Shown here piece by piece: positions 7,900 through 34,516 of a stretch of 64,000 bases of DNA; position 1 is the first letter of the stretch, and each line of letters begins with the position of its first letter. Origin of the DNA: Escherichia phage KIT01. The stretch lies in sequence record AP019521.1. One strand, written 5' to 3'. Below the pieces are notes generated by a model. The model made no database searches, was not told where the DNA came from, and saw only the letters and a list, made by a program, of their open reading frames with translations. Made by a program: the position numbers and the translations under genes.

Positions 7900-8099
7900 T
7901 ATTTTTGTGCTTTGGCGCCTTTCCAACCTTCATACATCATTCCGGCGGAAATTAACAAAGCACCCGAGCAACTTGAATACTTGTGATTCCAAAACCAGTT
8001 TAGAAAAACTTCGTCATCAATACCTTGAGCTATCATATTTTCAAAGAACTGACGACGAGCTTCAGCAATTCGCTGTGATAATTTAGATTCAGGATTCAT
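7899..8099 (-). CDS. hypothetical protein
   Basis: 66-aa ORF. Confidence 0.4.
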   Translation of the reverse strand: MNPESKLSQRIAEARRQFFENMIAQGIDDEVFLNWFWNHKYSSCSGALLISAGMMYEGWKGAKAQK

Positions 8100-8231
8100 T
8101 TAAATTTTCCAATTGCCATTTTCATCAATGAATTTAACCCAGTCATTTACTGACCACTTGGTTGTATCGCCTTTTGGACTAACATTTAAAGTGTATAGTC
8201 CTTGCTTAAAAAGCATTCGTTTGATATTCAT
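8100..8231 (-). CDS. hypothetical small protein
   Basis: ATG at 8231 preceded by GAGGAAAA; track ORF 8100..8324 overlaps neighbour out of frame. Confidence 0.3.
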   Translation of the reverse strand: MNIKRMLFKQGLYTLNVSPKGDTTKWSVNDWVKFIDENGNWKI

Positions 8232-8238
8232 ATTTTCC

Positions 8239-8532
8239 TCAGCTGTAACGATAACACTCGTTTGATTTACGTTTTGCAACTTGATGAGAAGTATTGTAAT
8301 CAGGTTCATCGTCGTTGTAAACATCTTTTTTCAGCTTTCTCACTTCTTTACGAAGTTGGCGATTCATTTCATTCTTAACTTCAGAGTCAACGCCTCTCAT
8401 ACGTTTCCACTTGTCGGAACGGAAGATATTTTCTTCAACCAAATCCTGACTTACGCCGACCGGTGCTTTACGACGTCCGGAATAATAAAAATCTTTTACA
8501 GACAATTCTTTACGACGAATAGTTTTACCCAT
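8239..8532 (-). CDS. hypothetical basic protein
   Basis: 97-aa Lys/Arg-rich ORF. Confidence 0.45.
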   Translation of the reverse strand: MGKTIRRKELSVKDFYYSGRRKAPVGVSQDLVEENIFRSDKWKRMRGVDSEVKNEMNRQLRKEVRKLKKDVYNDDEPDYNTSHQVAKRKSNECYRYS

Positions 8533-11892: not shown

Positions 11893-12156
11893 TCATTTGA
11901 AGTATGCTCGCAGTTGGTCAAAGCCGCCAATATGACTTCCATCCGGAGCAAATACTTGAGGCATAGTCAAACCCACCTGAGATTCACGTCCAAGGGCAGC
12001 CAGGAGTTCGGCAATCTTCTCATCATCAAATACACCTTTTTCCGGCATCACGTTAATGAATTCGTAAGGTTGTTTCTTAACATCAAGCAGACGTTTGGCA
12101 TTATCACAGAAAACACAACGGTGAATATTTGAATCATAACCATAAACTTTAAACAT
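11893..12156 (-). CDS. nrdC: thioredoxin/glutaredoxin NrdC
   Basis: 87 aa; MFKVYGYDSNIHRCVFCDNAKRLL...GLTMPQVFAPDGSHIGGFDQL matches T4 NrdC. Confidence 0.85.
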   Translation of the reverse strand: MFKVYGYDSNIHRCVFCDNAKRLLDVKKQPYEFINVMPEKGVFDDEKIAELLAALGRESQVGLTMPQVFAPDGSHIGGFDQLRAYFK

Positions 12157-12157
12157 T

Positions 12158-12394
12158 TTAAATTCCTAATATTTGTTTGAATGCTTCAGAACGGTCGAGT
12201 TCTGTTCCATATTTTTCCATGTGCTCATATTTTAAATTATACACATCAGATAGTATATTATTATACGAACGAGTTAAAGCAGATTTTAAAACTGAATAAC
12301 TGTCTGGGAATTTACCATGCTCTTTATAATAAGCTAGGGTAAGTTCGCGGACTGCCTTATCGGCAGCCTCTACATATTCTTTACGCTTTGCCAT
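12158..12394 (-). CDS. hypothetical protein
   Basis: ATG at 12394 (MAKRKEY...); track ORF 12158..12508 overlaps upstream gene. Confidence 0.4.
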
Positions 12395-12689
12395 TTTCGT
12401 CTCGCTCAAATCGGTGTTTGCAATGGCGGCATTTGTAACGAAGATTACTAGTCTGCCAATGGACCAATTGGACCTGTTCTGTACCGCACTCAGGACAGTT
12501 AGGAACATTCTTAGAAGATTGTTCTCGTCGTGCGACCATAGCCATTACGGCATCCCAATTAACAGGGCTATAATCATCACAGCCATGAATCTTACCAACC
12601 AATTCAGCTTCAACATCCTCGGCTTTAATAAATTTCAATAAACCGGTATTAGATGCCGAAGCAATATCTTCAGCTAAACGTTGTTTCAT
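12381..12689 (-). CDS. zinc-ribbon protein
   Basis: 102 aa with CPECG...CRHCKH Cys pairs. Confidence 0.45.
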
Positions 12690-13696
12690 TTCAGCAGCTC
12701 CAGAGCCTGTTCAAGACGGTCTAAACGATTGGTAGACTCTTCCCAAAGTTTCTTGGCAGCAGTATATTGCCCGGTCAGTTTTTTGTTGATAGCAAGGGCA
12801 TCTTTATACGCTTTTTCTAAGGCAACGACTTCTGGTAACTTGGATTTAGTAATTGGTGTAGGGGCCATGATAGGGCTGTTCAAGTCGTTAATCAAGTCTT
12901 CTAATGTAGCAGGCTCTTTATCAGTGTTCACAATTTCCTCACATTTTTCTTGGTAAATTTCAGCATCAGTTTTTGGAACGGTATATTTGATTTCACGGAC
13001 TGTTACTAAAACTTCATATCCTTTCCAGCCTAAGTGGTGTTTAACTTCTTGGGTCTCATATTTCTCTACGGTATCCATCAGAGCTAAAGCTTGTTCGATA
13101 GTATTCAAGGTATCGTAAGCAATATCTTGATACTTTACAACTTCCGCATCATCTTTAGGTTTCCTATTAGGTGACCAAATAACAGAAATAATAGCTTTTC
13201 CTTTATAACTATTTGTTTTAATCATGCAATTAGCCAGCGGGTGAATAGTACGACAATCACCGGAAACTATAGTTTTAGAGGCCGCTTTGAGAATTAATGC
13301 AGAGTTAGCCTTGAATTCGCTAACCCAACGTTGCGGAAATAAACTACTAGGGTCCATACCTTTAATTTTGACATAATCTTTTATGGTATCACCAAACCAT
13401 TTGTAGCTAACAACATGGCTAGAACCCGGATATTTCTCTTTACCGAACTCAGAAAGGATGTCCTTATTGACCAGACGCGAAAGAAGTCGAGAACCTTTAA
13501 ATGTATCTACGATATCAGAAATAAACAAACGGCCTGCGATCTTTTCGATTTCAGCTTTGAAACAGCGCGATAATGCATCATCAATTTGGTCGACCCATTT
13601 ATTGATATTAGAAACTATTACCACATATGGGGTTAATGGAGGGGTGTTGGCAGTGATATACGTAGTAAAGGCATTGATGTATTCAGTACGAGTCAT
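12686..13696 (-). CDS. hypothetical protein with C-terminal coiled coil
   Basis: 336 aa; GAGGAGAA RBS; C-terminal [13 protein letters not shown]. Confidence 0.55.
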   Translation of the reverse strand: MTRTEYINAFTTYITANTPPLTPYVVIVSNINKWVDQIDDALSRCFKAEIEKIAGRLFISDIVDTFKGSRLLSRLVNKDILSEFGKEKYPGSSHVVSYKWFGDTIKDYVKIKGMDPSSLFPQRWVSEFKANSALILKAASKTIVSGDCRTIHPLANCMIKTNSYKGKAIISVIWSPNRKPKDDAEVVKYQDIAYDTLNTIEQALALMDTVEKYETQEVKHHLGWKGYEVLVTVREIKYTVPKTDAEIYQEKCEEIVNTDKEPATLEDLINDLNSPIMAPTPITKSKLPEVVALEKAYKDALAINKKLTGQYTAAKKLWEESTNRLDRLEQALELLK

Positions 13697-13723
13697 GATA
13701 TTCTCCTCAAGTTGATAGAAAGA

Positions 13724-13752
13724 TTATACTCCATCCATCCTTGGATGTAAAC
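13724..13752 (-). promoter_or_regulatory. early sigma70-type promoter
   Basis: GTTTAC(13747-13752)-17 nt-GTATAA(13724-13729) upstream of 12686..13696. Confidence 0.5.
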
Positions 13753-13753
13753 A

Positions 13754-14659
13754 TTATTTTAGAGCTAATACTGCCGCGCGGAGCTTGTCACGCTGGAGTT
13801 CCATGTTCTTGATGCGAATCAATACGTCTTGGATACTCTTTTTCTCATCTTCGATTTGACCGTTTAAACGGTGGATTGATTCCTGGAGGTGGTCCTCATG
13901 ATACTTCTCGATAGGTTTCATCGTAGGGTTAGTAACAACCAAAGAATTATCAGGTTTAATTTTCCAATGATACGGTTCGGAATTGAATGGGCTTGGTACA
14001 GCCGTGGTTTTGAATTTGTCATAGGCTGCATACTGGCCTACGCTATCACATGATACGGCAGAGGTAGAGATAGATATACGACGTTCCATTTGTGCGTCCT
14101 TTTGTTGGGATTGATAAGGGGCATAAGACAAAAGATATTCACTAGTTAGTTTAACGTTGATATACACTGCATCAGCCCGTCCAGAACAATCAGCGTATTC
14201 ATCGGTTGTAACTTTATATGATTCTACAGCCTTAATACGGGTCATTGCTTCCCTGAATAAGGTTTCAAATGCTTCACGAAGAGCCTTATTACCTTTTGAG
14301 GTAGGACGGAAACGAACTTGAATGCCGTCATTCAGAATATTAATGACTAGGTTACGAGCCGTAAAATTAATATTTTTGATATTGACAGGAACCGTAGAAA
14401 TACGTCCTGCGGTAGCCAAGAGGTCTTTGATATTAGCTCGCAATGTTGCACCGAACAGGTGGGCCGGGCAACGGCAATAATCGTTCAAAGAACCAATATA
14501 AGTTCCTTTACGGCCTACACCATAAGTATAATTACCATTACAAATATGGCCAAAGTCTGCCAGCCGATCGATAGCGATACGACGAGTCGTGTCATGGTCA
14601 TAGATGGAATATTCTTTACGTGTTTTAATGTTCATATCAGAGTCCAAATAATTTTTCAT
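13754..14659 (-). CDS. hypothetical protein with C-terminal coiled coil
   Basis: 301 aa; C-terminal LQRDKLRAAVLALK; start uncertain (ATG 14659 or 14635). Confidence 0.5.
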   Translation of the reverse strand: MKNYLDSDMNIKTRKEYSIYDHDTTRRIAIDRLADFGHICNGNYTYGVGRKGTYIGSLNDYCRCPAHLFGATLRANIKDLLATAGRISTVPVNIKNINFTARNLVINILNDGIQVRFRPTSKGNKALREAFETLFREAMTRIKAVESYKVTTDEYADCSGRADAVYINVKLTSEYLLSYAPYQSQQKDAQMERRISISTSAVSCDSVGQYAAYDKFKTTAVPSPFNSEPYHWKIKPDNSLVVTNPTMKPIEKYHEDHLQESIHRLNGQIEDEKKSIQDVLIRIKNMELQRDKLRAAVLALK

Positions 14660-14852
14660 AGAATTTAGCGATAGGCCACAGAATTAGCATACATAACCAA
14701 GCAAAGCAAAATACTGGCCATACAAATGTAATGAATACTGCATCATAGCTTGATTCAATTTTAACCGGGTTCCATGCGCCTGTTTTATGCGCAATCAAAG
14801 CAGTAATAAATCCTATCACAAGATATCCAAGAATAAAACTAATAATTTCCAT
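14637..14852 (-). CDS. small membrane protein
   Basis: 71 aa, two hydrophobic helices. Confidence 0.45.
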   Translation of the reverse strand: MEIISFILGYLVIGFITALIAHKTGAWNPVKIESSYDAVFITFVWPVFCFAWLCMLILWPIAKFYEKLFGL

Positions 14853-14854
14853 GA

Positions 14855-15697
14855 TTAATCCTTAAGAAGATTTAGGATATCGATATATTTTTGTCGTTCA
14901 GCCTTAGCTTTAGCGTTCAGACTAGAGAGTCGGAAAATCTCATCATCTTGTTGCTGAATTGTAACATTCAAGCAAGTAAGCAAATTGCTAAAATACTCGA
15001 TTTGAGATTGATGCTTCTCATTGCTGCGCACTGGTACAGGTTCCGGTTTAGGAGCTTCTGGGTGCTCTTCAGCCAGGTCTTTAATTTTATAAAGTTTAAT
15101 ACGCTGACCCGCGCCAGTTTCGGCATCACCAAAACTAAGAACACCGTGCTGTTCTAATTCAGACAAGGCCAGTCGGAGATGGAACTTCCAGTTGTCGTAT
15201 TGACAACCACTGTAATGGGAAATGGTATACTCATTTTCATTTCTGGGGTGGTTAACAATACTAAAGATAATCCAATCACCTGAACCATTGGTCTTAAAGG
15301 TCATTTGTTTATCAAGACCTTTTGCAAGGCGAGCGCCAAGAGCCAGTAGACGTCGTTGGTTGGCATGAAGGTCTTGAACAACTTCGTCAAATGACATCGC
15401 CGGGATTAAACGACCATAAAGGTCGTAGCCTTTGTTATAATTTTTAAGAATAATTTTGGCATTAGCACGAGACAACATACCTGTTTTACGAAGAGTTTTC
15501 ATGACCCGGTCTTCTAAGGTAAAAGACCCTTTGGTCTTGTCAAAGATTTTAGTGAAGTCATCTTTAACAGTACAAACATTGAACTTGTCCCACATCATAT
15601 ATAGAACCTTTTCAACCACTTCTTTAGTACTCGGAATACGACCAAATTTAATAACTTTTTTAACTTCAGAACGAATTTGATTAATTGCCTGTGACAT
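14855..15697 (-). CDS. hypothetical protein with C-terminal coiled coil
   Basis: 280 aa; C-terminal RQKYIDILNLLKD. Confidence 0.5.
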   Translation of the reverse strand: MSQAINQIRSEVKKVIKFGRIPSTKEVVEKVLYMMWDKFNVCTVKDDFTKIFDKTKGSFTLEDRVMKTLRKTGMLSRANAKIILKNYNKGYDLYGRLIPAMSFDEVVQDLHANQRRLLALGARLAKGLDKQMTFKTNGSGDWIIFSIVNHPRNENEYTISHYSGCQYDNWKFHLRLALSELEQHGVLSFGDAETGAGQRIKLYKIKDLAEEHPEAPKPEPVPVRSNEKHQSQIEYFSNLLTCLNVTIQQQDDEIFRLSSLNAKAKAERQKYIDILNLLKD

Positions 15698-15763
15698 AAT
15701 AATAATTTCCTCAGTAAGTAATTAAGAACCTAGAACCATTATACCATCCTTGGTATAAAGCGT

Positions 15764-16288
15764 TTATGCGAGAACCGTCTTTAAACGCTCTTCAAATTTC
15801 TGAAGCAGAGCTTGGCGTTCAGCTCGTTGTGATTTGTACTGCTCGATACGACCTGAAGTGAGGGCGTACTGTTCGTTTACTGATTCCCGCATGAATTCAG
15901 GAATCTCTTTACAAGCTTTGATTTCGTCAAACTTATCAATAACAGCTTGTTGTTCAGCAATCAGATTATCGAAATAAGCGATATCAGATTTAACGTTTGC
16001 CAGGTCGGATTCGGTAGGCATTAAACGTTTGTTACGTTCAGCTTGATAAGCCTGATTGGTTTCACGACTCCAGTGAAGAGTACGTTTTTTGTTAGTGTTT
16101 TTATAGAGCTCTACAATACCAACTGAATCGATGACTGCAATCCAGTTCCAACGGCTTTTGTAAATCTCTCCTCCGGATACGGTAATCTCATTACCACAAG
16201 CAACATCGTTAAAGAACTTGCTTTGTTTTTCAGATTTGAAATTACCGTTGTTGAAATTAATCAGTGAAAAAATATCTTTAGCGTTCAT
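15764..16288 (-). CDS. hypothetical protein with C-terminal coiled coil
   Basis: 174 aa; GGAGG RBS; C-terminal RQALLQKFEERLKTVLA. Confidence 0.5.
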   Translation of the reverse strand: MNAKDIFSLINFNNGNFKSEKQSKFFNDVACGNEITVSGGEIYKSRWNWIAVIDSVGIVELYKNTNKKRTLHWSRETNQAYQAERNKRLMPTESDLANVKSDIAYFDNLIAEQQAVIDKFDEIKACKEIPEFMRESVNEQYALTSGRIEQYKSQRAERQALLQKFEERLKTVLA

Positions 16289-16294
16289 GATAAC

Positions 16295-16343
16295 CTCCAG
16301 TAGTTGATAGGTCTATAGTATCATTTCTACTGGAGATGTAAAC
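16295..16343 (-). promoter_or_regulatory. early promoter with SD-pairing inverted repeat (PeSL-like)
   Basis: GTTTAC(16338-16343)-17 nt-TACTAT(16315-16320); arms CTCCAGTAG(16295-16303)/CTACTGGAG(16327-16335). Confidence 0.55.
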
Positions 16344-16345
16344 AA

Positions 16346-16687
16346 CTAATAGAAACTTTTTTCACCTGATTGTCCACTAAACCATGCGGATTGGGTATTC
16401 TCTTTCCGTTGGTGTTCGATACGAATGCGATATTCATTCCTGATGGCGCAGAGTTCACCTCGGAAGTCGCCTACCAACTTTACCTGCTTATGGTCTAGAT
16501 TTATTAAGGCTTGGGTCTTCGCTGCCAAGAGCAGTCTCCTGTAGTCTCCTTCTTCACAATCAGTTTTATAAACTCTATTAGTATATCCGTCGACAACTTC
16601 TTTATCATAGTCCTCGACAGACTGTTTCATGGCTTTAGAAAAAGTCTGACCTGCGTTAAAAAGATTGTAAATAAATTGTTCAAACAT
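16346..16687 (-). CDS. hypothetical protein
   Basis: 113-aa ORF. Confidence 0.45.
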   Translation of the reverse strand: MFEQFIYNLFNAGQTFSKAMKQSVEDYDKEVVDGYTNRVYKTDCEEGDYRRLLLAAKTQALINLDHKQVKLVGDFRGELCAIRNEYRIRIEHQRKENTQSAWFSGQSGEKSFY

Positions 16688-16696
16688 AATTCACCT

Positions 16697-17677
16697 TTAT
16701 TTCAGAAGGGTAACTTCAGCGATTTCGCTCCAGTCATTTTTATCGGTGGCAATGAAGTCCGCCAGATAAAGAGCTGTACGTAATGATACGTTACGAAGAC
16801 GAGATACATTAGCCTTCATCCATGCTAAAGCTTGATAAGTCTCAGCATCAGTCAGACCTCGATTTTGCATCATATCAGTGGACAGGATAACGTCTTCAAC
16901 ACGAACCATAATCTCTTCGTTAGAGTGAACTCCGAGGTCTAAGTAAACTGAACGAGATACTAAAGCCTGGAGGTGTGGAGCAAGTTTAGTTCCACGCTCT
17001 AATTCACGGTCGATATCAACGTTGGTGATGAACACGATGGTGCCTTCGTATTCAAATTCTTTATCGATATTTTTATCATCGAGGTAAGAACTTGAAGTGC
17101 TCCAGCACACCTTACGTTTTTCACCTGTATCCAATGCCGCTTTTAACAGGTTCAGGATATCCATATCAGAGAATACATCAACATCATCAATAAGAAGAAC
17201 ACTATTAGGGCCGCGGTTATTCCAAAGCTGCTCGTAAAGACCGATTCCACTAATCTTTCCGTTGATTGATTTATATTCGATAGTTTCATTTTCGTGGGCA
17301 TTTTGTAATGCTTTATCCAAAGAATACGTTTTACCAATACCTGCGGCACCAGAGATGATAAGGGAACGAATTTTACCATCGATGATTCCGTTGGTCATCA
17401 TGTTCATTACTTTAAAACGTTTGTTAATGCGATGTTTCATTTCTTCAGCGGATTCAGTAACCATTGCAGGAGCTTCAGCACCTTCCATTTCAACGTCACA
17501 TTTGAACACCCATACACCACGTTCAACACCATCAATCTGTACGAATACCTTGCCATCACCGAGGTGAGCTTCGGATTCATGAATTTTGTTAGGGAACCAG
17601 GTTTTACCTGAACTCATGAACGTACCAGAGATTTCATTACCGCGATAGATGCCTTTGTTGATTTTGATAGTTAACAT
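16697..17677 (-). CDS. AAA+ ATPase of unknown function
   Basis: Walker A ISGAAGIGKTYSL, Walker B VLLIDDVD, sensor FITNVD; ATG at 17677 after GGAGAA (track ORF starts further upstream). Confidence 0.65.
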   Translation of the reverse strand: MLTIKINKGIYRGNEISGTFMSSGKTWFPNKIHESEAHLGDGKVFVQIDGVERGVWVFKCDVEMEGAEAPAMVTESAEEMKHRINKRFKVMNMMTNGIIDGKIRSLIISGAAGIGKTYSLDKALQNAHENETIEYKSINGKISGIGLYEQLWNNRGPNSVLLIDDVDVFSDMDILNLLKAALDTGEKRKVCWSTSSSYLDDKNIDKEFEYEGTIVFITNVDIDRELERGTKLAPHLQALVSRSVYLDLGVHSNEEIMVRVEDVILSTDMMQNRGLTDAETYQALAWMKANVSRLRNVSLRTALYLADFIATDKNDWSEIAEVTLLK

Positions 17678-17714
17678 TATATTCTCCATTTCACTCAGTA
17701 GATTTGATAGGTCC

Positions 17715-17743
17715 ATAATAACATGCTCTACGAGAGTGTAAAC
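17715..17743 (-). promoter_or_regulatory. early sigma70-type promoter
   Basis: GTTTAC(17738-17743)-17 nt-TATTAT(17715-17720) upstream of the AAA+ ATPase gene. Confidence 0.5.
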
Positions 17744-17762
17744 TCTTTTTTGCACTAAACCC

Positions 17763-17784
17763 AAAAAGGCCCGAAGGCCTTTTA
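17763..17784 (-). terminator. rho-independent terminator (structurally bidirectional)
   Basis: AAAGGCC-CGAA-GGCCTTT hairpin flanked by A/T runs immediately after the nucleotidyltransferase stop. Confidence 0.55.
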
Positions 17785-18795
17785 TCATTTATAATACGAG
17801 TTGTGGTTGTCGAGGTATACCTCTTCAACGAACTTGTCCCAGAACTTCATGTCTACCTTCTCAGGCATACCGTTCTTAGCGGCCCAGATAGCATTAGTTT
17901 CGACTTCATCAACGATGGCTTCAAGTTCGGCCTGCACATCTTTAAAAGCATGAAGCCCTTGTTTGATTTCAAGGATAAACGGTGCCGTACGTAAAGGATA
18001 TTGGAGGTCACCTGTTTGATAGATTTCCTTCAACTGATAACCAGCACGATAAGCATGGCTCAGAGCTTTCCAGTCAATACCTTCGTTAGCTTCAGCCTTA
18101 CGAGCACGTTCACCATATTCCGCATCGAGCTTATTCAGAGATTGCTTGAGCTCGATTAATGACAGGGTGGTTTGGTATTTACGCCCGAGAACAGTATAGA
18201 ACGTTTGAGGGCCTGTTTTCTCATGGTTATGGAATACCCATTCACAGAATTCGTTTTCAGGGAGTCGATGTTTGATATCTTCTACCTTAGTACGACGTTG
18301 CTTAGTCGAACCATCTTCTTGATAATCGACCCACTGTTCAGGAATCTGGTTAACAATAGCCAGTACACCACGCAGAGCAGCCAGTCGAGAACCCTTAACA
18401 CCATATTTAGAAGCTTGCTTACGGACATACCCTAAATAGGCTTTCATGTTAGTTGTATAGAACCGAGAACGGTTATCTTGGATAAATTTCCATACATCAG
18501 GTAAATCAGATTTAACCACCAGTTCAGGTGGGGTGTGGAGCATATCCAGAGCAACGGTTTCGCCTTCAGCCGCTAGTTTAAAGAAATATTTCAGGCTGTA
18601 AAGCTCATGGTCAACATCATCTTTAGTGTTTTTGGAAGCAGTGTTATTCGTATTCAGGTTGGTATGGTTCATAGCCGTACCTAACAGAATATCACGCGGA
18701 TGTGGAACAAAGATTTCTTTAAAATCGACATCAGATTCCGGAGTACTTGTTCCATAAAGGTGGCTACCGAAGTAGCCTTTCATAACTGTTCTCAT
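17785..18795 (-). CDS. Pol-beta-superfamily nucleotidyltransferase of unknown specificity
   Basis: N-terminal GSHLYGTSTPESDVDF (GS-x9-DxD) motif; ATG at 18795 overlaps upstream stop (ATGA); track ORF begins at GTG 18825. Confidence 0.6.
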   Translation of the reverse strand: MRTVMKGYFGSHLYGTSTPESDVDFKEIFVPHPRDILLGTAMNHTNLNTNNTASKNTKDDVDHELYSLKYFFKLAAEGETVALDMLHTPPELVVKSDLPDVWKFIQDNRSRFYTTNMKAYLGYVRKQASKYGVKGSRLAALRGVLAIVNQIPEQWVDYQEDGSTKQRRTKVEDIKHRLPENEFCEWVFHNHEKTGPQTFYTVLGRKYQTTLSLIELKQSLNKLDAEYGERARKAEANEGIDWKALSHAYRAGYQLKEIYQTGDLQYPLRTAPFILEIKQGLHAFKDVQAELEAIVDEVETNAIWAAKNGMPEKVDMKFWDKFVEEVYLDNHNSYYK

Positions 18796-19244
18796 TCTTT
18801 GTTCTCGAAGTGGATTACAGGACACATCTTAGATTTACGAGCTTTAATGTATTGAATAACGATATTTTCTTTAGTTTCTCGGCCTTCACGCTCAGCTTGA
18901 ATACGTTGCCATTCCTTTTCTTCTCTACGGGCATCATACCATGCGTGTAAATTCATCGCACCGAATGCCAAACCAATGGATAGCGCAATAATAAGAGCTA
19001 TTGCAACCAACCCTAAAACAAACCCAAGGCTCAACAGAACAGGAGTACTTAATACAAAGAAATGCTCTAATACGCCAGCGCCCGCGACAGTTAATCCAAA
19101 AAGCGTACTACCTGCAACAACAGCACAAGCAAAACAAGCCCAAATCATTTTCCAGAAATAAGCGCACAGAGAGTGTGGTCGAGAATGACGGTCGTAAAAA
19201 CGGTCATGTAGTTTAACGTGCCAAGAGTTCGCATTGATAATCAT
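18792..19244 (-). CDS. membrane protein
   Basis: 150 aa; AAGGAAA RBS; two long hydrophobic helices. Confidence 0.5.
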   Translation of the reverse strand: MIINANSWHVKLHDRFYDRHSRPHSLCAYFWKMIWACFACAVVAGSTLFGLTVAGAGVLEHFFVLSTPVLLSLGFVLGLVAIALIIALSIGLAFGAMNLHAWYDARREEKEWQRIQAEREGRETKENIVIQYIKARKSKMCPVIHFENKE

Positions 19245-33640: not shown

Positions 33641-33987
33641 GATTTACATTCCTTAATAAAGGTTTCAAGGTCATTACGTTTAGTTTGTTTTACATACTCA
33701 TTATAATTAGCCATCTCTAAAGCATATCTCTTTTTGCTTGGCTTGTTTATCCTATTGGTGTTGATAATATCCAAGACAAGAGGGATAAAGTATCCTATTA
33801 AAGCTGGAACCCAAATCCAGGCAGGGTTCAATTCAAATAGATTTTGTGTCGTATCATTAACGACTCCGCCAGCAATTAGTCCAACAAGCCCGGCAATCAT
33901 ACCAGTGACAAGTCCAGCGAATAAAGAAATAGCGATATCATAATCTGCTAATGCGTAACCAGGGTCGGTTTTACTAGGCTTATACAT
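33637..33987 (-). CDS. membrane protein
   Basis: ATG 33987 after AAGAGG; hydrophobic GLVTGMIAGLVGLIAGG and a second helix. Confidence 0.45.
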   Translation of the reverse strand: MYKPSKTDPGYALADYDIAISLFAGLVTGMIAGLVGLIAGGVVNDTTQNLFELNPAWIWVPALIGYFIPLVLDIINTNRINKPSKKRYALEMANYNEYVKQTKRNDLETFIKECKS

Positions 33988-34516
33988 TACGAACCTCTTT
34001 AGCGTATTCGCGGCATTCAGCAATAAAACGATTAAGCTTCCGTTGCTGTTTTCGAATCTCTGATGTATACTCATTGGCCAAAATAATAAGCTCATCTTTA
34101 TCGTAATTTTTAATATCAGAGTAAGATGGGCGGCGGTCGACCATACCAAAATGGTCACCATTTTCTAACATCAAATAGCATACTAAATGGTAATCATCGT
34201 CGGCATTAGTAAGCTGTTTATAATCGCTTGGTTCATTTAAAGAGTATACTGAATAGCGTAGCCCAGCGAACTCCACTCGTTGAATATCCAGATTTACGTC
34301 AATAATTTCTAAAGCTTCTGCAAAAGAAAGGTCCTCAGCCAAAGCAAAGATAAAAGGTAATTTGGTAGTATGCCCACGGCTACTTGTTCGACTTAAGAAA
34401 TCATTGGAATAACCTAAGTCTTGGCGAATTCTATAAAGAACTGAATTAGTTTCATGTGAAAGACCACTATGTTTAAACCAATCAATATTTGATATCAGGT
34501 CGTCATATAAACTCAT
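33980..34516 (-). CDS. hypothetical protein
   Basis: 178-aa ORF. Confidence 0.5.
   Translation of the reverse strand: MSLYDDLISNIDWFKHSGLSHETNSVLYRIRQDLGYSNDFLSRTSSRGHTTKLPFIFALAEDLSFAEALEIIDVNLDIQRVEFAGLRYSVYSLNEPSDYKQLTNADDDYHLVCYLMLENGDHFGMVDRRPSYSDIKNYDKDELIILANEYTSEIRKQQRKLNRFIAECREYAKEVRNV

What the first reader, a model, noticed from the sequence alone, without database searches (positions are those of the whole stretch)
12686..16288. Four consecutive accessory proteins share a C-terminal amphipathic helix despite unrelated bodies
The products of 12686..13696, 13754..14659, 14855..15697 and 15764..16288 end in similar leucine-rich helices ([13 protein letters not shown]; LQRDKLRAAVLALK; RQKYIDILNLLKD; RQALLQKFEERLKTVLA). 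The upstream domains show no obvious similarity. A shared C-terminal oligomerisation or docking helix on variable effector domains is a possible explanation.
Basis: seen in the sequence. Interest (0 to 1): 0.5.

Follow-up and report, generated by a model that had tools for sequence, protein, structure and literature searches.

The report
Tandem phage paralogs with coiled-coil tails
Three of the four neighbouring phage proteins are very diverged copies of one gene that kept the same long C-terminal helix; the fourth belongs to a separate family, and one relative in phage T4 is known to disarm a bacterial immune protein, so this is an ordinary but informative accessory-gene array.

Summary
The window comes from a JS98/IME08-like T4-type coliphage (Dhakavirus). 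The four minus-strand ORFs and their quoted C-termini are real. They are NrdC.4-like, DUF7235 (the Pfam family of T4 NrdC.5), NrdC.6-like and NrdC.8-like.

All four end in heptad-patterned helices, ranking 3rd, 4th, 5th and 7th of 108 window ORFs. AlphaFold2 predicts a body, a low-confidence Pro-rich linker and a roughly 50-residue terminal helix for NrdC.4-like and NrdC.6-like.

The tail sequences are not more alike than generic coiled coils: single-sequence shuffles, heptad-preserving profile shuffles and leave-one-family-out HMMs are all negative.

"Unrelated bodies" is wrong for three of the four. With tails removed, Foldseek, iterative HMMs with decoys and hhalign (P about 2e-5 to 5e-5, reversed controls 0.16-0.4) unite NrdC.3/.4/.5/.6 with a single-copy gene at the same position in Klebsiella, Edwardsiella, Kosakonia and Citrobacter phages. 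The helix is therefore inherited by tandem duplication, not a shuffled module. NrdC.8 (Pfam Phage_T4_Y05D) is a separate family.

T4 NrdC.5 counteracts the Dsr1 sirtuin defence (PMC9391042). The array is therefore probably a set of diversifying anti-defence proteins with a tail that most likely self-associates. That function is inferred, not shown.

The parts
12686..13696 (-). NrdC.4-like protein, 336 aa (phrog_1435; precomputed Pfam PF26897). Body aa 1-257 (nt 12926-13696), low-confidence Pro-rich linker about aa 258-287 (nt 12836-12925), single C-terminal helix aa 288-335 (nt 12689-12835).
   Evidence: AlphaFold2 (mean pLDDT 81; body about 90; 259-262 and 274-286 below 50; helix 288-335 at 67-84); heptad register.
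13754..14659 (-). DUF7235 protein, 301 aa, same Pfam family as T4 NrdC.5. Heptad-patterned tail about aa 250-301 (nt 13757-13912), ending LQRDKLRAAVLALK.
   Evidence: Pfam DUF7235 E 4.5e-122, full length; T4 NrdC.5 also DUF7235, E 5e-126; blastp to T4 NrdC.5 22% identity, E 9e-16; register.
14855..15697 (-). NrdC.6-like protein, 280 aa (phrog_2257; precomputed Pfam PF26899). Body aa 1-203 (nt 15089-15697), low-confidence linker aa 204-229 (nt 15011-15088), terminal helices aa 230-256 and 262-279 (nt 14858-15010).
   Evidence: AlphaFold2 (mean pLDDT 80; 208-225 below 50).
15764..16288 (-). NrdC.8-like protein, 174 aa (phrog_2274; family Phage_T4_Y05D / PF26901). Conserved N-domain about aa 1-90 (nt 16019-16288); helical, charged region about aa 95-174 (nt 15767-16006). 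A separate family, not a paralogue of the other three.
   Evidence: 68% identity to T4 NrdC.8; 45 cluster representatives share the N-domain and carry variable helical tails; hhalign against the other groups P 0.1-0.8, same as reversed controls.
14637..14852 (-). 71-aa hydrophobic, probably membrane ORF (phrog_7899) between the NrdC.6-like and DUF7235 genes, overlapping the start of the latter by 23 nt. Context only, not part of the paralogue family.
   Evidence: (annotated at this position in Bp7).
12381..12689 (-). NrdC.2 zinc-ribbon protein. Its ATG overlaps the NrdC.4-like stop codon (ATGA at 12686-12689), so the two are probably translationally coupled. The last paralogue of the array overlaps nrdC.2 by 4 nt in T4, PEi20 and Kosakonia phage 305, and by 1 nt in JK45.
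   Evidence: annotations.
13723..13751 (-). Promoter-like site (TTTACA, 17 nt spacer, TATAAT; 11 of 12 matches) in the gap between the DUF7235 and NrdC.4-like genes, after the stop codon.
   Evidence: A consensus match only.
16315..16342 (-). Promoter-like site (TTTACA, 16 nt spacer, TACTAT) upstream of the NrdC.8-like gene, after the stop codon of the preceding ORF.
   Evidence: A consensus match only.

Best explanation
The block is a tandem array of diverged paralogues of one T4-type phage gene. That gene is single-copy next to nrdC.2 in Klebsiella, Edwardsiella, Kosakonia, Citrobacter and probably Acinetobacter T4-like phages, and has expanded to NrdC.3/.4/.5/.6 in the T4, RB69 and JS98 lineages. 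Here the members are NrdC.4-like, DUF7235/NrdC.5-like and NrdC.6-like.

All members keep one architecture: an alpha/beta body of about 200-260 residues, a Pro-rich flexible linker of about 25 residues, and a heptad-repeat helix of about 48 residues running to the C-terminus and ending in a [KR]-h-x-x-[AI]-h-x-x-L-K type motif. The shared helix is therefore inherited. The bodies have diverged almost beyond sequence recognition, while the tail is held constant within each orthologue group.

NrdC.8-like is an unrelated neighbour: a widespread small N-domain followed by its own variable helical tail.

Inferred mechanism (not shown): the tail forms a coiled coil that self-associates. The resulting multivalent body binds and neutralises a host defence protein, as T4 NrdC.5 does genetically for the Dsr1 sirtuin. 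Different paralogues would then address different targets.
For: Identity of the locus.

Architecture: AlphaFold2 models give nearly the same order of secondary-structure elements in both bodies, then a linker with pLDDT below 50, then the terminal helix or helices.

Body homology, tails excluded:
- Foldseek of the NrdC.4 model hits an NrdC.3-length protein (E 2e-7), Acinetobacter, Erwinia and Serratia phage proteins, and a 378-aa Shigella phage Sf25 protein (E 6e-4, probability 1.0). That Sf25 entry is the second-best hit of the NrdC.6 model (E 5.9e-19) and matches NrdC.6-family member P0188 in phage, length and source name.
- The NrdC.6 model hits the same Acinetobacter and Serratia proteins.
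- phmmer on tail-less bodies links PEi20 and NrdC.6 (2e-5), NrdC.3 and NrdC.4 (1e-5), and DUF7235 and T4 NrdC.5 (1e-6).
- An iterative HMM with 90 residues trimmed and reversed decoys gathers all groups at E 1e-5 to 9e-4, against a best decoy of 0.067.
- hhalign: NrdC.3/4 vs NrdC.6 group P 4.5e-5; NrdC.3/4/6 vs NrdC.5 group P 2.3e-5 over 111 columns; reversed controls 0.16-0.4.

Tails:
- Common heptad register counted from the C-terminus.
- A terminal motif, defined post hoc, found in 12 family members plus one neighbouring protein among 224 proteins, and in only 13 of 1653 six-frame ORFs.
- The PEi20 tail matches the tail part of Pfam DUF7235 (E 6e-6) although its body is closest to NrdC.6.

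Single-copy gene at the same position in other genera.

Function: T4 nrdC.5 restores infection of Dsr1-carrying cells (PMC9391042). T4 NrdC.5 and the window ORF are both full-length DUF7235 members.
Against: - The NrdC.5/DUF7235 link to the other bodies is weaker (hhalign probability 47-76%; direct E 0.06-0.16 for the window protein) and partly transitive.
- No structure model of the DUF7235 or NrdC.8-like proteins could be made.
- The local database is small, the terminal motif is post hoc and the alignments are shallow, so the AlphaFold2 models are of only moderate confidence.
- Oligomerisation is inferred from the heptad pattern and an isolated long helix. No multimer prediction or experiment was available, and the NrdC.6 tail is predicted as two helices with a break, so its geometry may differ.
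- Only T4 NrdC.5 has a demonstrated anti-defence role. The window's DUF7235 protein is only about 22% identical to it and need not target Dsr1.
Confidence: 0.6

Rival explanations
1. One reading: a common C-terminal oligomerisation or docking helix has been attached, by domain shuffling, to unrelated effector domains.
For: Single-sequence and shallow-profile comparisons of the bodies find nothing. The tails are well conserved within families. The PEi20 protein combines an NrdC.6-like body with an NrdC.5-like tail, which could be read as mosaicism.
Against: The bodies are homologous once structure and intermediate sequences are used. There is no DNA repeat or shared codon usage in the tail-coding regions, so no recent transfer of a module. 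The tails of different paralogues are not specifically alike, so they would not fit one docking site.
Confidence: 0.08
2. Coincidence: these are generic amphipathic C-terminal helices of no common origin or function.
For: Shuffling and heptad-preserving controls show no sequence similarity beyond a coiled-coil pattern. Leave-one-out HMMs fail. For NrdC.8-like this is probably the right description of its relation to the other three.
Against: Four adjacent genes rank 3rd, 4th, 5th and 7th of 108. Three share body homology, linker, tail length, register and terminal motif. The tails are the most conserved segment in two families.
Confidence: 0.1
3. The tails mediate hetero-association among the paralogues, or with a shared partner encoded nearby such as the NrdC.10 AAA-type ATPase or NrdC.2, so that the array forms one complex.
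For: The genes are adjacent, all tails share one heptad register from the C-terminus, and the DUF7235 and NrdC.6-like tails have only one core polar mismatch in register. NrdC.10 is conserved next to the block in many genera. The last paralogue is translationally coupled to NrdC.2.
Against: Most genera carry a single copy, so the ancestral tail cannot have depended on paralogue partners. The NrdC.4-like tail has 4-5 core polar mismatches with the others, and g-e' charge pairs are slightly better for self-pairing (+2, +2) than for mixed pairs (-1 to 0) (a crude heuristic). T4 nrdC.5 alone, expressed from a plasmid, restores infection of a T4 deletion clone (other T4 genes are still present during that infection).
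Confidence: 0.15

Closest known systems
T4 NrdC.5 (Pfam DUF7235), the anti-Dsr1 factor of Srikant et al. 2022 (PMC9391042)
   Same: The window ORF 13754-14659 is a full-length DUF7235 member, like T4 NrdC.5. It sits at the same place in the nrdC block and has the same type of tail (PxEK[YW]H ... QRxKL..A...L.K).
   Different: Only about 22% identical to T4 NrdC.5 and 39 residues shorter. Whether it acts on Dsr1 or on another target is unknown. The mechanism of T4 NrdC.5 itself has not been published in the literature I could search.
T4 ORFs nrdC.3, nrdC.4 and nrdC.6 (uncharacterised; Pfam PF26897 and PF26899 as precomputed)
   Same: NrdC.4-like is 44% identical and NrdC.6-like 47% identical to the T4 proteins, with the same gene order and the same body-linker-helix plan.
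   Different: This phage lacks nrdC.3 and nrdC.7. The databases file these as separate families, whereas the evidence here places them, with DUF7235, in one superfamily of tandem paralogues.
Phage_T4_Y05D (PF26901), the T4 NrdC.8 family
   Same: The window ORF 15764-16288 is 68% identical to T4 NrdC.8. Its N-terminal domain of about 90 residues recurs in 45 cluster representatives, all followed by a helical, charged tail.
   Different: Not related to the NrdC.3-.6 bodies. In this family the tail sequence is not conserved between distant members, and the family also occurs in phages that are not T4-like.
DSAD1, the phage inhibitor of the DSR2 sirtuin defence (PMC10973363, PMC10981675, PMC11087589)
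   Same: Functional analogy only: a phage protein that neutralises a defence-associated sirtuin, in that case by direct binding.
   Different: No sequence or structural relationship was tested or seen here. DSAD1 targets DSR2, not DSR1.
The dmd-tifA-adfA anti-toxin island of T4 (PMC9391042)
   Same: A cluster of early, non-essential, individually promoted accessory genes that counter host defences and vary between T4-like phages.
   Different: Those genes are unrelated small proteins, whereas here the cluster arose by duplication of one gene.

Membership tests
Pfam DUF7235 (PF23882; T4 NrdC.5 family) | Full-length match to the family model above the gathering score | tested here: met
   ORF 13754-14659: E 4.5e-122, 407.7 bits against a cut-off of 30, residues 1-301 on profile positions 1-307. 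T4 NrdC.5 itself: E 5.3e-126.
Pfam DUF7235 (PF23882; T4 NrdC.5 family) | Counteracts the Dsr1 sirtuin defence, the only function shown for a member | not testable with these tools
   Shown genetically for T4 nrdC.5 only. The window protein is about 22% identical to it.
NrdC.4 family (phrog_1435; PF26897 precomputed) | Full-length match to the family model and orthology to T4 NrdC.4 | tested here: met
   phrog_1435 E 4.9e-144, residues 1-336; 44% identity over the full length to T4 NrdC.4; all database homologues carry PF26897. The PF26897 model is not in the local Pfam copy (no hit).
NrdC.6 family (phrog_2257; PF26899 precomputed) | Full-length match to the family model and orthology to T4 NrdC.6 | tested here: met
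   phrog_2257 E 6e-124; 47% identity to T4 NrdC.6; homologues carry PF26899.
NrdC.8 / Phage_T4_Y05D (phrog_2274; PF26901) | Conserved N-terminal domain of about 90 residues and orthology to T4 NrdC.8 | tested here: met
   phrog_2274 E 1.4e-101; 68% identity to T4 NrdC.8; N-domain hits in 45 representatives. PF26901 is recorded for relative P0210 but the model is not in the local Pfam copy.
Proposed NrdC.3/.4/.5/.6 superfamily of tandem paralogues | Homologous body, tested with the tail removed | tested here: met
   NrdC.4-like and NrdC.6-like: Foldseek cross-hits at probability 1.0, hhalign P 4.5e-5, iterative HMM. DUF7235 branch: hhalign P 2.3e-5 and probability 76%; T4 NrdC.5 joins the iteration at E 4e-4 against a best decoy of 0.067. 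This branch is weaker, and the window protein is linked through T4 NrdC.5.
Proposed NrdC.3/.4/.5/.6 superfamily of tandem paralogues | Body, low-confidence Pro-rich linker, then a heptad helix of about 48 residues reaching the C-terminus with the terminal [KR]-h-x-x-[AI]-h-x-x-L-K motif | tested here: met
   AlphaFold2 for two members; register and motif for all three window members. The motif was defined post hoc.
Proposed NrdC.3/.4/.5/.6 superfamily of tandem paralogues | Membership of the NrdC.8-like protein | tested here: not met
   hhalign P 0.1-0.8, the same as reversed controls; iterative HMM E 0.18; register offset by one and no terminal motif; the tail links to nothing outside its own family.
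Coiled coil (oligomerising alpha-helical tail) | Unbroken heptad a/d hydrophobic pattern in a long continuous helix | tested here: met
   NrdC.4-like: 14 consecutive a/d positions over 49 residues and one predicted helix 288-335. DUF7235: same register. NrdC.6-like: same register, but the helix is broken at residues 257-261. NrdC.8-like: weaker pattern. No dedicated coiled-coil predictor was available.
Coiled coil (oligomerising alpha-helical tail) | Actual self-association and oligomeric state | not testable with these tools
The g-e' and core-polar heuristics are only suggestive.
DSAD1-type anti-DSR proteins | Sequence or fold relationship to DSAD1 | not tested
   Considered only as a functional analogue, from the literature listed.

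The most novel reading that the evidence does not exclude
Probability: 0.15. Interest if true: 0.7.

Novelty: new member of a known kind. Interest (0 to 1): 0.35.

Why it matters
The nrdC-to-nrdC.10 region is one of the variable accessory regions of T4-type phages (my own knowledge), and nearly all of its genes are unannotated. Showing that NrdC.3, .4, .5 and .6 are one duplicated gene family with a fixed body-linker-coiled-coil plan links three orphan families to the one member with a phenotype, T4 NrdC.5 against Dsr1. That gives concrete candidates for new anti-defence proteins and a simple experiment, tail deletion, to probe how they work. It also corrects the idea of a shuffled docking helix.

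Tried and rejected
- **A DNA-level cause** (a promoter or MotA-box-like signal inside the gene ends imposing the 'LLK' ending). Rejected: the codons differ (CTGCTGAAA, GCTCTAAAA, CTTCTTAAGGAT, GTTCTCGCA) and the promoter-like sites lie after the stop codons.
- **Recent gene conversion or module transfer.** Rejected: there are no DNA repeats in the tail-coding regions, only short repeats around ribosome-binding sites.
- **Full-length hhalign with shallow family alignments.** It found nothing significant and clearly lacked power, since it also missed the NrdC.4/NrdC.6 relation that structure later showed.
- **Leave-one-family-out tail HMMs and tail-only phmmer.** No specific signal; reversed coiled-coil decoys score almost as well.
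- **Database scans.** PADLOC, NCBIfam and PDB sequence searches gave no informative hits for the four proteins.
- **The tblastn hits covering only NrdC.6 residues 228-280** in RB69-like phages looked like the tail on a new body. That protein (JK45_00094) is simply a diverged NrdC.6 with an insertion.
- **Aeromonas phage ZHF and Cronobacter phage S13.** The region next to NrdC.10 has no such block there.
- **Literature.** Searches for nrdC.3/.4/.6/.8, DUF7235 and Dsr1 inhibitors gave nothing beyond the nrdC.5 genetics and one transcript-level mention of nrdC.8.
- **A working error.** My interim note that reversed loci were missing from the sandbox was wrong; the files hold several records each.

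Full report
**1. What the locus is.** Window 12000-17000 is 92-96% identical to Dhakavirus coliphages (vB_EcoM-E33, WG01, QL01, IME08, Bp7), which are T4-type phages of the JS98 group. The annotations of IME08, Bp7 and T4 place the finding in the early, leftward-transcribed block between nrdC.10/nrdC.11 and nrdC. All four ORFs are on the minus strand. In order of increasing coordinate (the reverse of the direction of transcription) they are:
- 12686-13696: NrdC.4-like (phrog_1435).
- 13754-14659: a full-length member of Pfam DUF7235 (E 4.5e-122).
- 14855-15697: NrdC.6-like (phrog_2257).
- 15764-16288: NrdC.8-like (phrog_2274).

T4 NrdC.5 is also a full-length DUF7235 member (E 5e-126). A 71-aa hydrophobic ORF (14637-14852) lies between the NrdC.6-like and DUF7235 genes. 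The ATG of the NrdC.2 zinc-ribbon gene overlaps the NrdC.4-like stop codon.

**2. Checking the observation.** The quoted C-terminal peptides are exact.

On single sequences the tails are no more alike than shuffled versions. For the last 20 residues p ranges from 0.07 to 0.97. The only low value is NrdC.4-like against DUF7235 over 60 residues (p=0.006), which is one of 18 tests.

I then built family profiles from database homologues and scored ungapped profile-profile alignments anchored at the C-terminus.
- Every pair among NrdC.3, .4, .5 and .6 scored best at offset 0 or 7. They share one heptad register counted from the C-terminus, with p<=0.006 against free column shuffling.
- NrdC.8 was always offset by one residue.
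- When the shuffling preserved the heptad position, nothing between different families stayed significant (p 0.05-0.5), apart from a marginal NrdC.3/NrdC.5 signal.
- Leave-one-family-out HMMs of the tails ranked the left-out protein 4th, 7th, 8th and 26th of 105 window proteins.

A crude heptad score of the last 35 residues ranks the four proteins 3rd, 4th, 5th and 7th of 108 ORFs called in the window. NrdC.4-like and DUF7235 have an identical, unbroken 49-residue a/d pattern. The tails are also conserved within families: mean pairwise identity 0.74/0.75/0.72 for the last 50 residues against 0.55/0.59/0.68 for the bodies, and 0.87/0.84 for the last 20 residues of the first two families.

**3. 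A DNA-level cause is excluded.** The endings use different codons, and the promoter-like sites lie after the stop codons. The only direct DNA repeats in 12600-16400 are short ones around ribosome-binding sites and start codons.

**4. Architecture.** AlphaFold2 was run with family alignments.
- NrdC.4-like (mean pLDDT 81): a confident body 1-257, a linker with pLDDT below 50 (259-262 and 274-286), and one helix 288-335.
- NrdC.6-like (mean pLDDT 80): a body 1-203, a linker with pLDDT below 50 (208-225), and helices 230-256 and 262-279.

The order of secondary-structure elements in the two bodies is nearly the same: five N-terminal helices, a helix pair, a beta-hairpin, a long helix and a second beta-hairpin.

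**5. The bodies are not unrelated.**
- *Foldseek against BFVD.* The NrdC.4 model hits an NrdC.3-length protein (E 2e-7), proteins of Acinetobacter, Erwinia and Serratia T4-like phages, and the 378-aa Shigella phage Sf25 protein A0A2K9VMF6 (E 6e-4, probability 1.0). That entry is the second-best hit of the NrdC.6 model (E 5.9e-19) and matches NrdC.6-family member P0188 in phage, length and source name (I did not compare the two sequences). The NrdC.6 model hits the same Acinetobacter and Serratia proteins. In phage Acj61 the two models hit proteins with consecutive accession numbers.
- *Equivalent blocks in other phages.* I fetched the block from nine phages, anchoring on the widely conserved NrdC.10 ATPase. 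Klebsiella GF, Edwardsiella PEi20, Kosakonia 305, Citrobacter Ursula and Acinetobacter Morttis each have one protein of 324-355 aa with the same kind of tail (for example ...AQRGKLLHAMQELRK). In the PEi20, Kosakonia and Ursula phages, where an nrdC.2-type zinc-ribbon gene is recognisable, it lies directly upstream of that gene.
- *Single-sequence searches, last 60 residues removed.* PEi20 matches NrdC.6 (2e-5), NrdC.3 matches NrdC.4 (1e-5), and DUF7235 matches T4 NrdC.5 (1e-6).
- *Iterative HMM, 90 residues trimmed, reversed decoys in the database.* Seeded with NrdC.4, it gathers in turn NrdC.3, the Klebsiella, Kosakonia and PEi20 proteins (about 1e-5), T4 NrdC.5 (4e-4), NrdC.6 (9e-4 and then 1e-10), Ursula and JK45 NrdC.5. 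The best decoy scores 0.067.
- *Independent tail-less hhalign.* NrdC.3/4 against the NrdC.6 group gives P 4.5e-5. NrdC.3/4/6 against the NrdC.5/DUF7235 group gives P 2.3e-5 over 111 columns. Reversed controls give 0.16-0.4.
- *Tail link.* The PEi20 protein matches the tail portion of Pfam DUF7235 (E 6e-6) although its body is closest to NrdC.6. This ties the tails together by descent.
- *Terminal motif.* A motif defined post hoc occurs in 12 family members plus one neighbouring Acinetobacter-phage protein among 224 proteins, and in only 13 of 1653 six-frame ORFs.

Three of the four proteins are therefore diverged tandem paralogues. The DUF7235 branch is the least certain.

**6. NrdC.8-like is different.** It never joins the superfamily: hhalign gives P 0.1-0.8, the same as the reversed controls, and the iterative HMM gives E 0.18. 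An exhaustive search finds its N-terminal domain of about 90 residues in 45 cluster representatives, each followed by a helical, charged tail of variable sequence. One distant member carries Pfam PF26901 (Phage_T4_Y05D) and sits next to DnaB and primase genes in a different kind of phage. With three of the four explained by duplication, the presence of a fourth coiled-coil-tailed neighbour is a single event. It may be coincidence, or a similar solution reached independently.

**7. Function.**
- *Shown.* T4 nrdC.5, expressed from a plasmid, restores plating of a T4 deletion clone on cells carrying the Dsr1 sirtuin defence of ECOR17 (PMC9391042). I found no later work on its mechanism, and nothing on nrdC.3.4 or .6.
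- *Inferred.* The paralogues are anti-defence or other host-directed proteins whose bodies diversify. The tail, held constant within each orthologue group and separated by a flexible linker, is a coiled coil that self-associates.
- *Self-pairing versus mixed pairing.* The ancestral gene is single-copy, so its tail cannot have depended on paralogue partners. The paralogous tails differ at core polar positions (4-5 mismatches for NrdC.4-like against the others), and g-e' charge pairs slightly favour self-pairing. That analysis is a crude heuristic.

**8. Limits.**
- Only two structure predictions were allowed, so there are no models of DUF7235 or NrdC.8-like.
- No multimer prediction and no dedicated coiled-coil predictor was available.
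- The family alignments are shallow because the families are restricted to enteric Tevenvirinae.
- E-values refer to a local database of about 220-450 sequences.
- The heptad score and the terminal motif are my own simple constructs.

**9. Verdict.** This is a new set of members of known T4 ORF families, with a modest new insight (one superfamily, one architecture) and a testable link to anti-defence function.

Noticed in passing
L003 (T4 NC_000866) 7951-8300, minus strand: The annotated T4 NrdC.6 ends ...IEELIFLFNNMMMKFSDYLD. The canonical tail DISIQQYDDEIFRLSGLSSKAKSEREKLIKIVDLLKS* is intact in another reading frame at that very point, so the reference record has a frameshift where the coiled coil begins. 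A newer T4 record (MT984581) matches in one piece.
   Followed up: partly
window 12686-12689: The NrdC.4-like stop codon and the NrdC.2 zinc-ribbon start codon overlap (ATGA). The last paralogue of the array overlaps nrdC.2 by 4 nt in T4, PEi20 and Kosakonia phage 305, and by 1 nt in JK45, which suggests conserved translational coupling.
   Followed up: partly
window 14637-14852 (-): A 71-aa hydrophobic, probably membrane ORF (phrog_7899) lies between the NrdC.6-like and DUF7235 genes and overlaps the start of the latter by 23 nt. T4 has a different predicted membrane protein (NrdC.7) in this block.
   Followed up: no
window 33980-34516 (-): A 178-aa protein of unknown function (phrog_8788) has the strongest C-terminal heptad score in the whole window.
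   Followed up: no
[not shown]
   Followed up: no
window 13693-13718 and 16285-16310: The NrdC.4-like and NrdC.8-like genes share a similar 5' leader and ribosome-binding region (26 nt, 81% identical), each downstream of a TTTACA-type promoter-like site.
   Followed up: no
window 16697-17788 (-) and 17785-18825 (-): NrdC.10 is a P-loop/AAA-type ATPase with weak STAND-like hits, conserved across more than 1300 phage records in many genera. NrdC.11 is an RlaP-type nucleotidyltransferase (RNA-repair-associated family). They flank the variable block.
   Followed up: no
L007 (Acinetobacter phage Morttis) 7560-8186 (-): A 208-aa protein one gene upstream of the single-copy superfamily member (a 195-aa ORF lies between them) also ends with the terminal motif (...KSRLKEALECLSLI). 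It may be a further diverged or truncated paralogue.
   Followed up: no
records listed: Many GenBank records label the nrdC.x ORFs 'thioredoxin', apparently by propagation from the neighbouring nrdC gene. None of the four proteins has a thioredoxin domain.
   Followed up: partly
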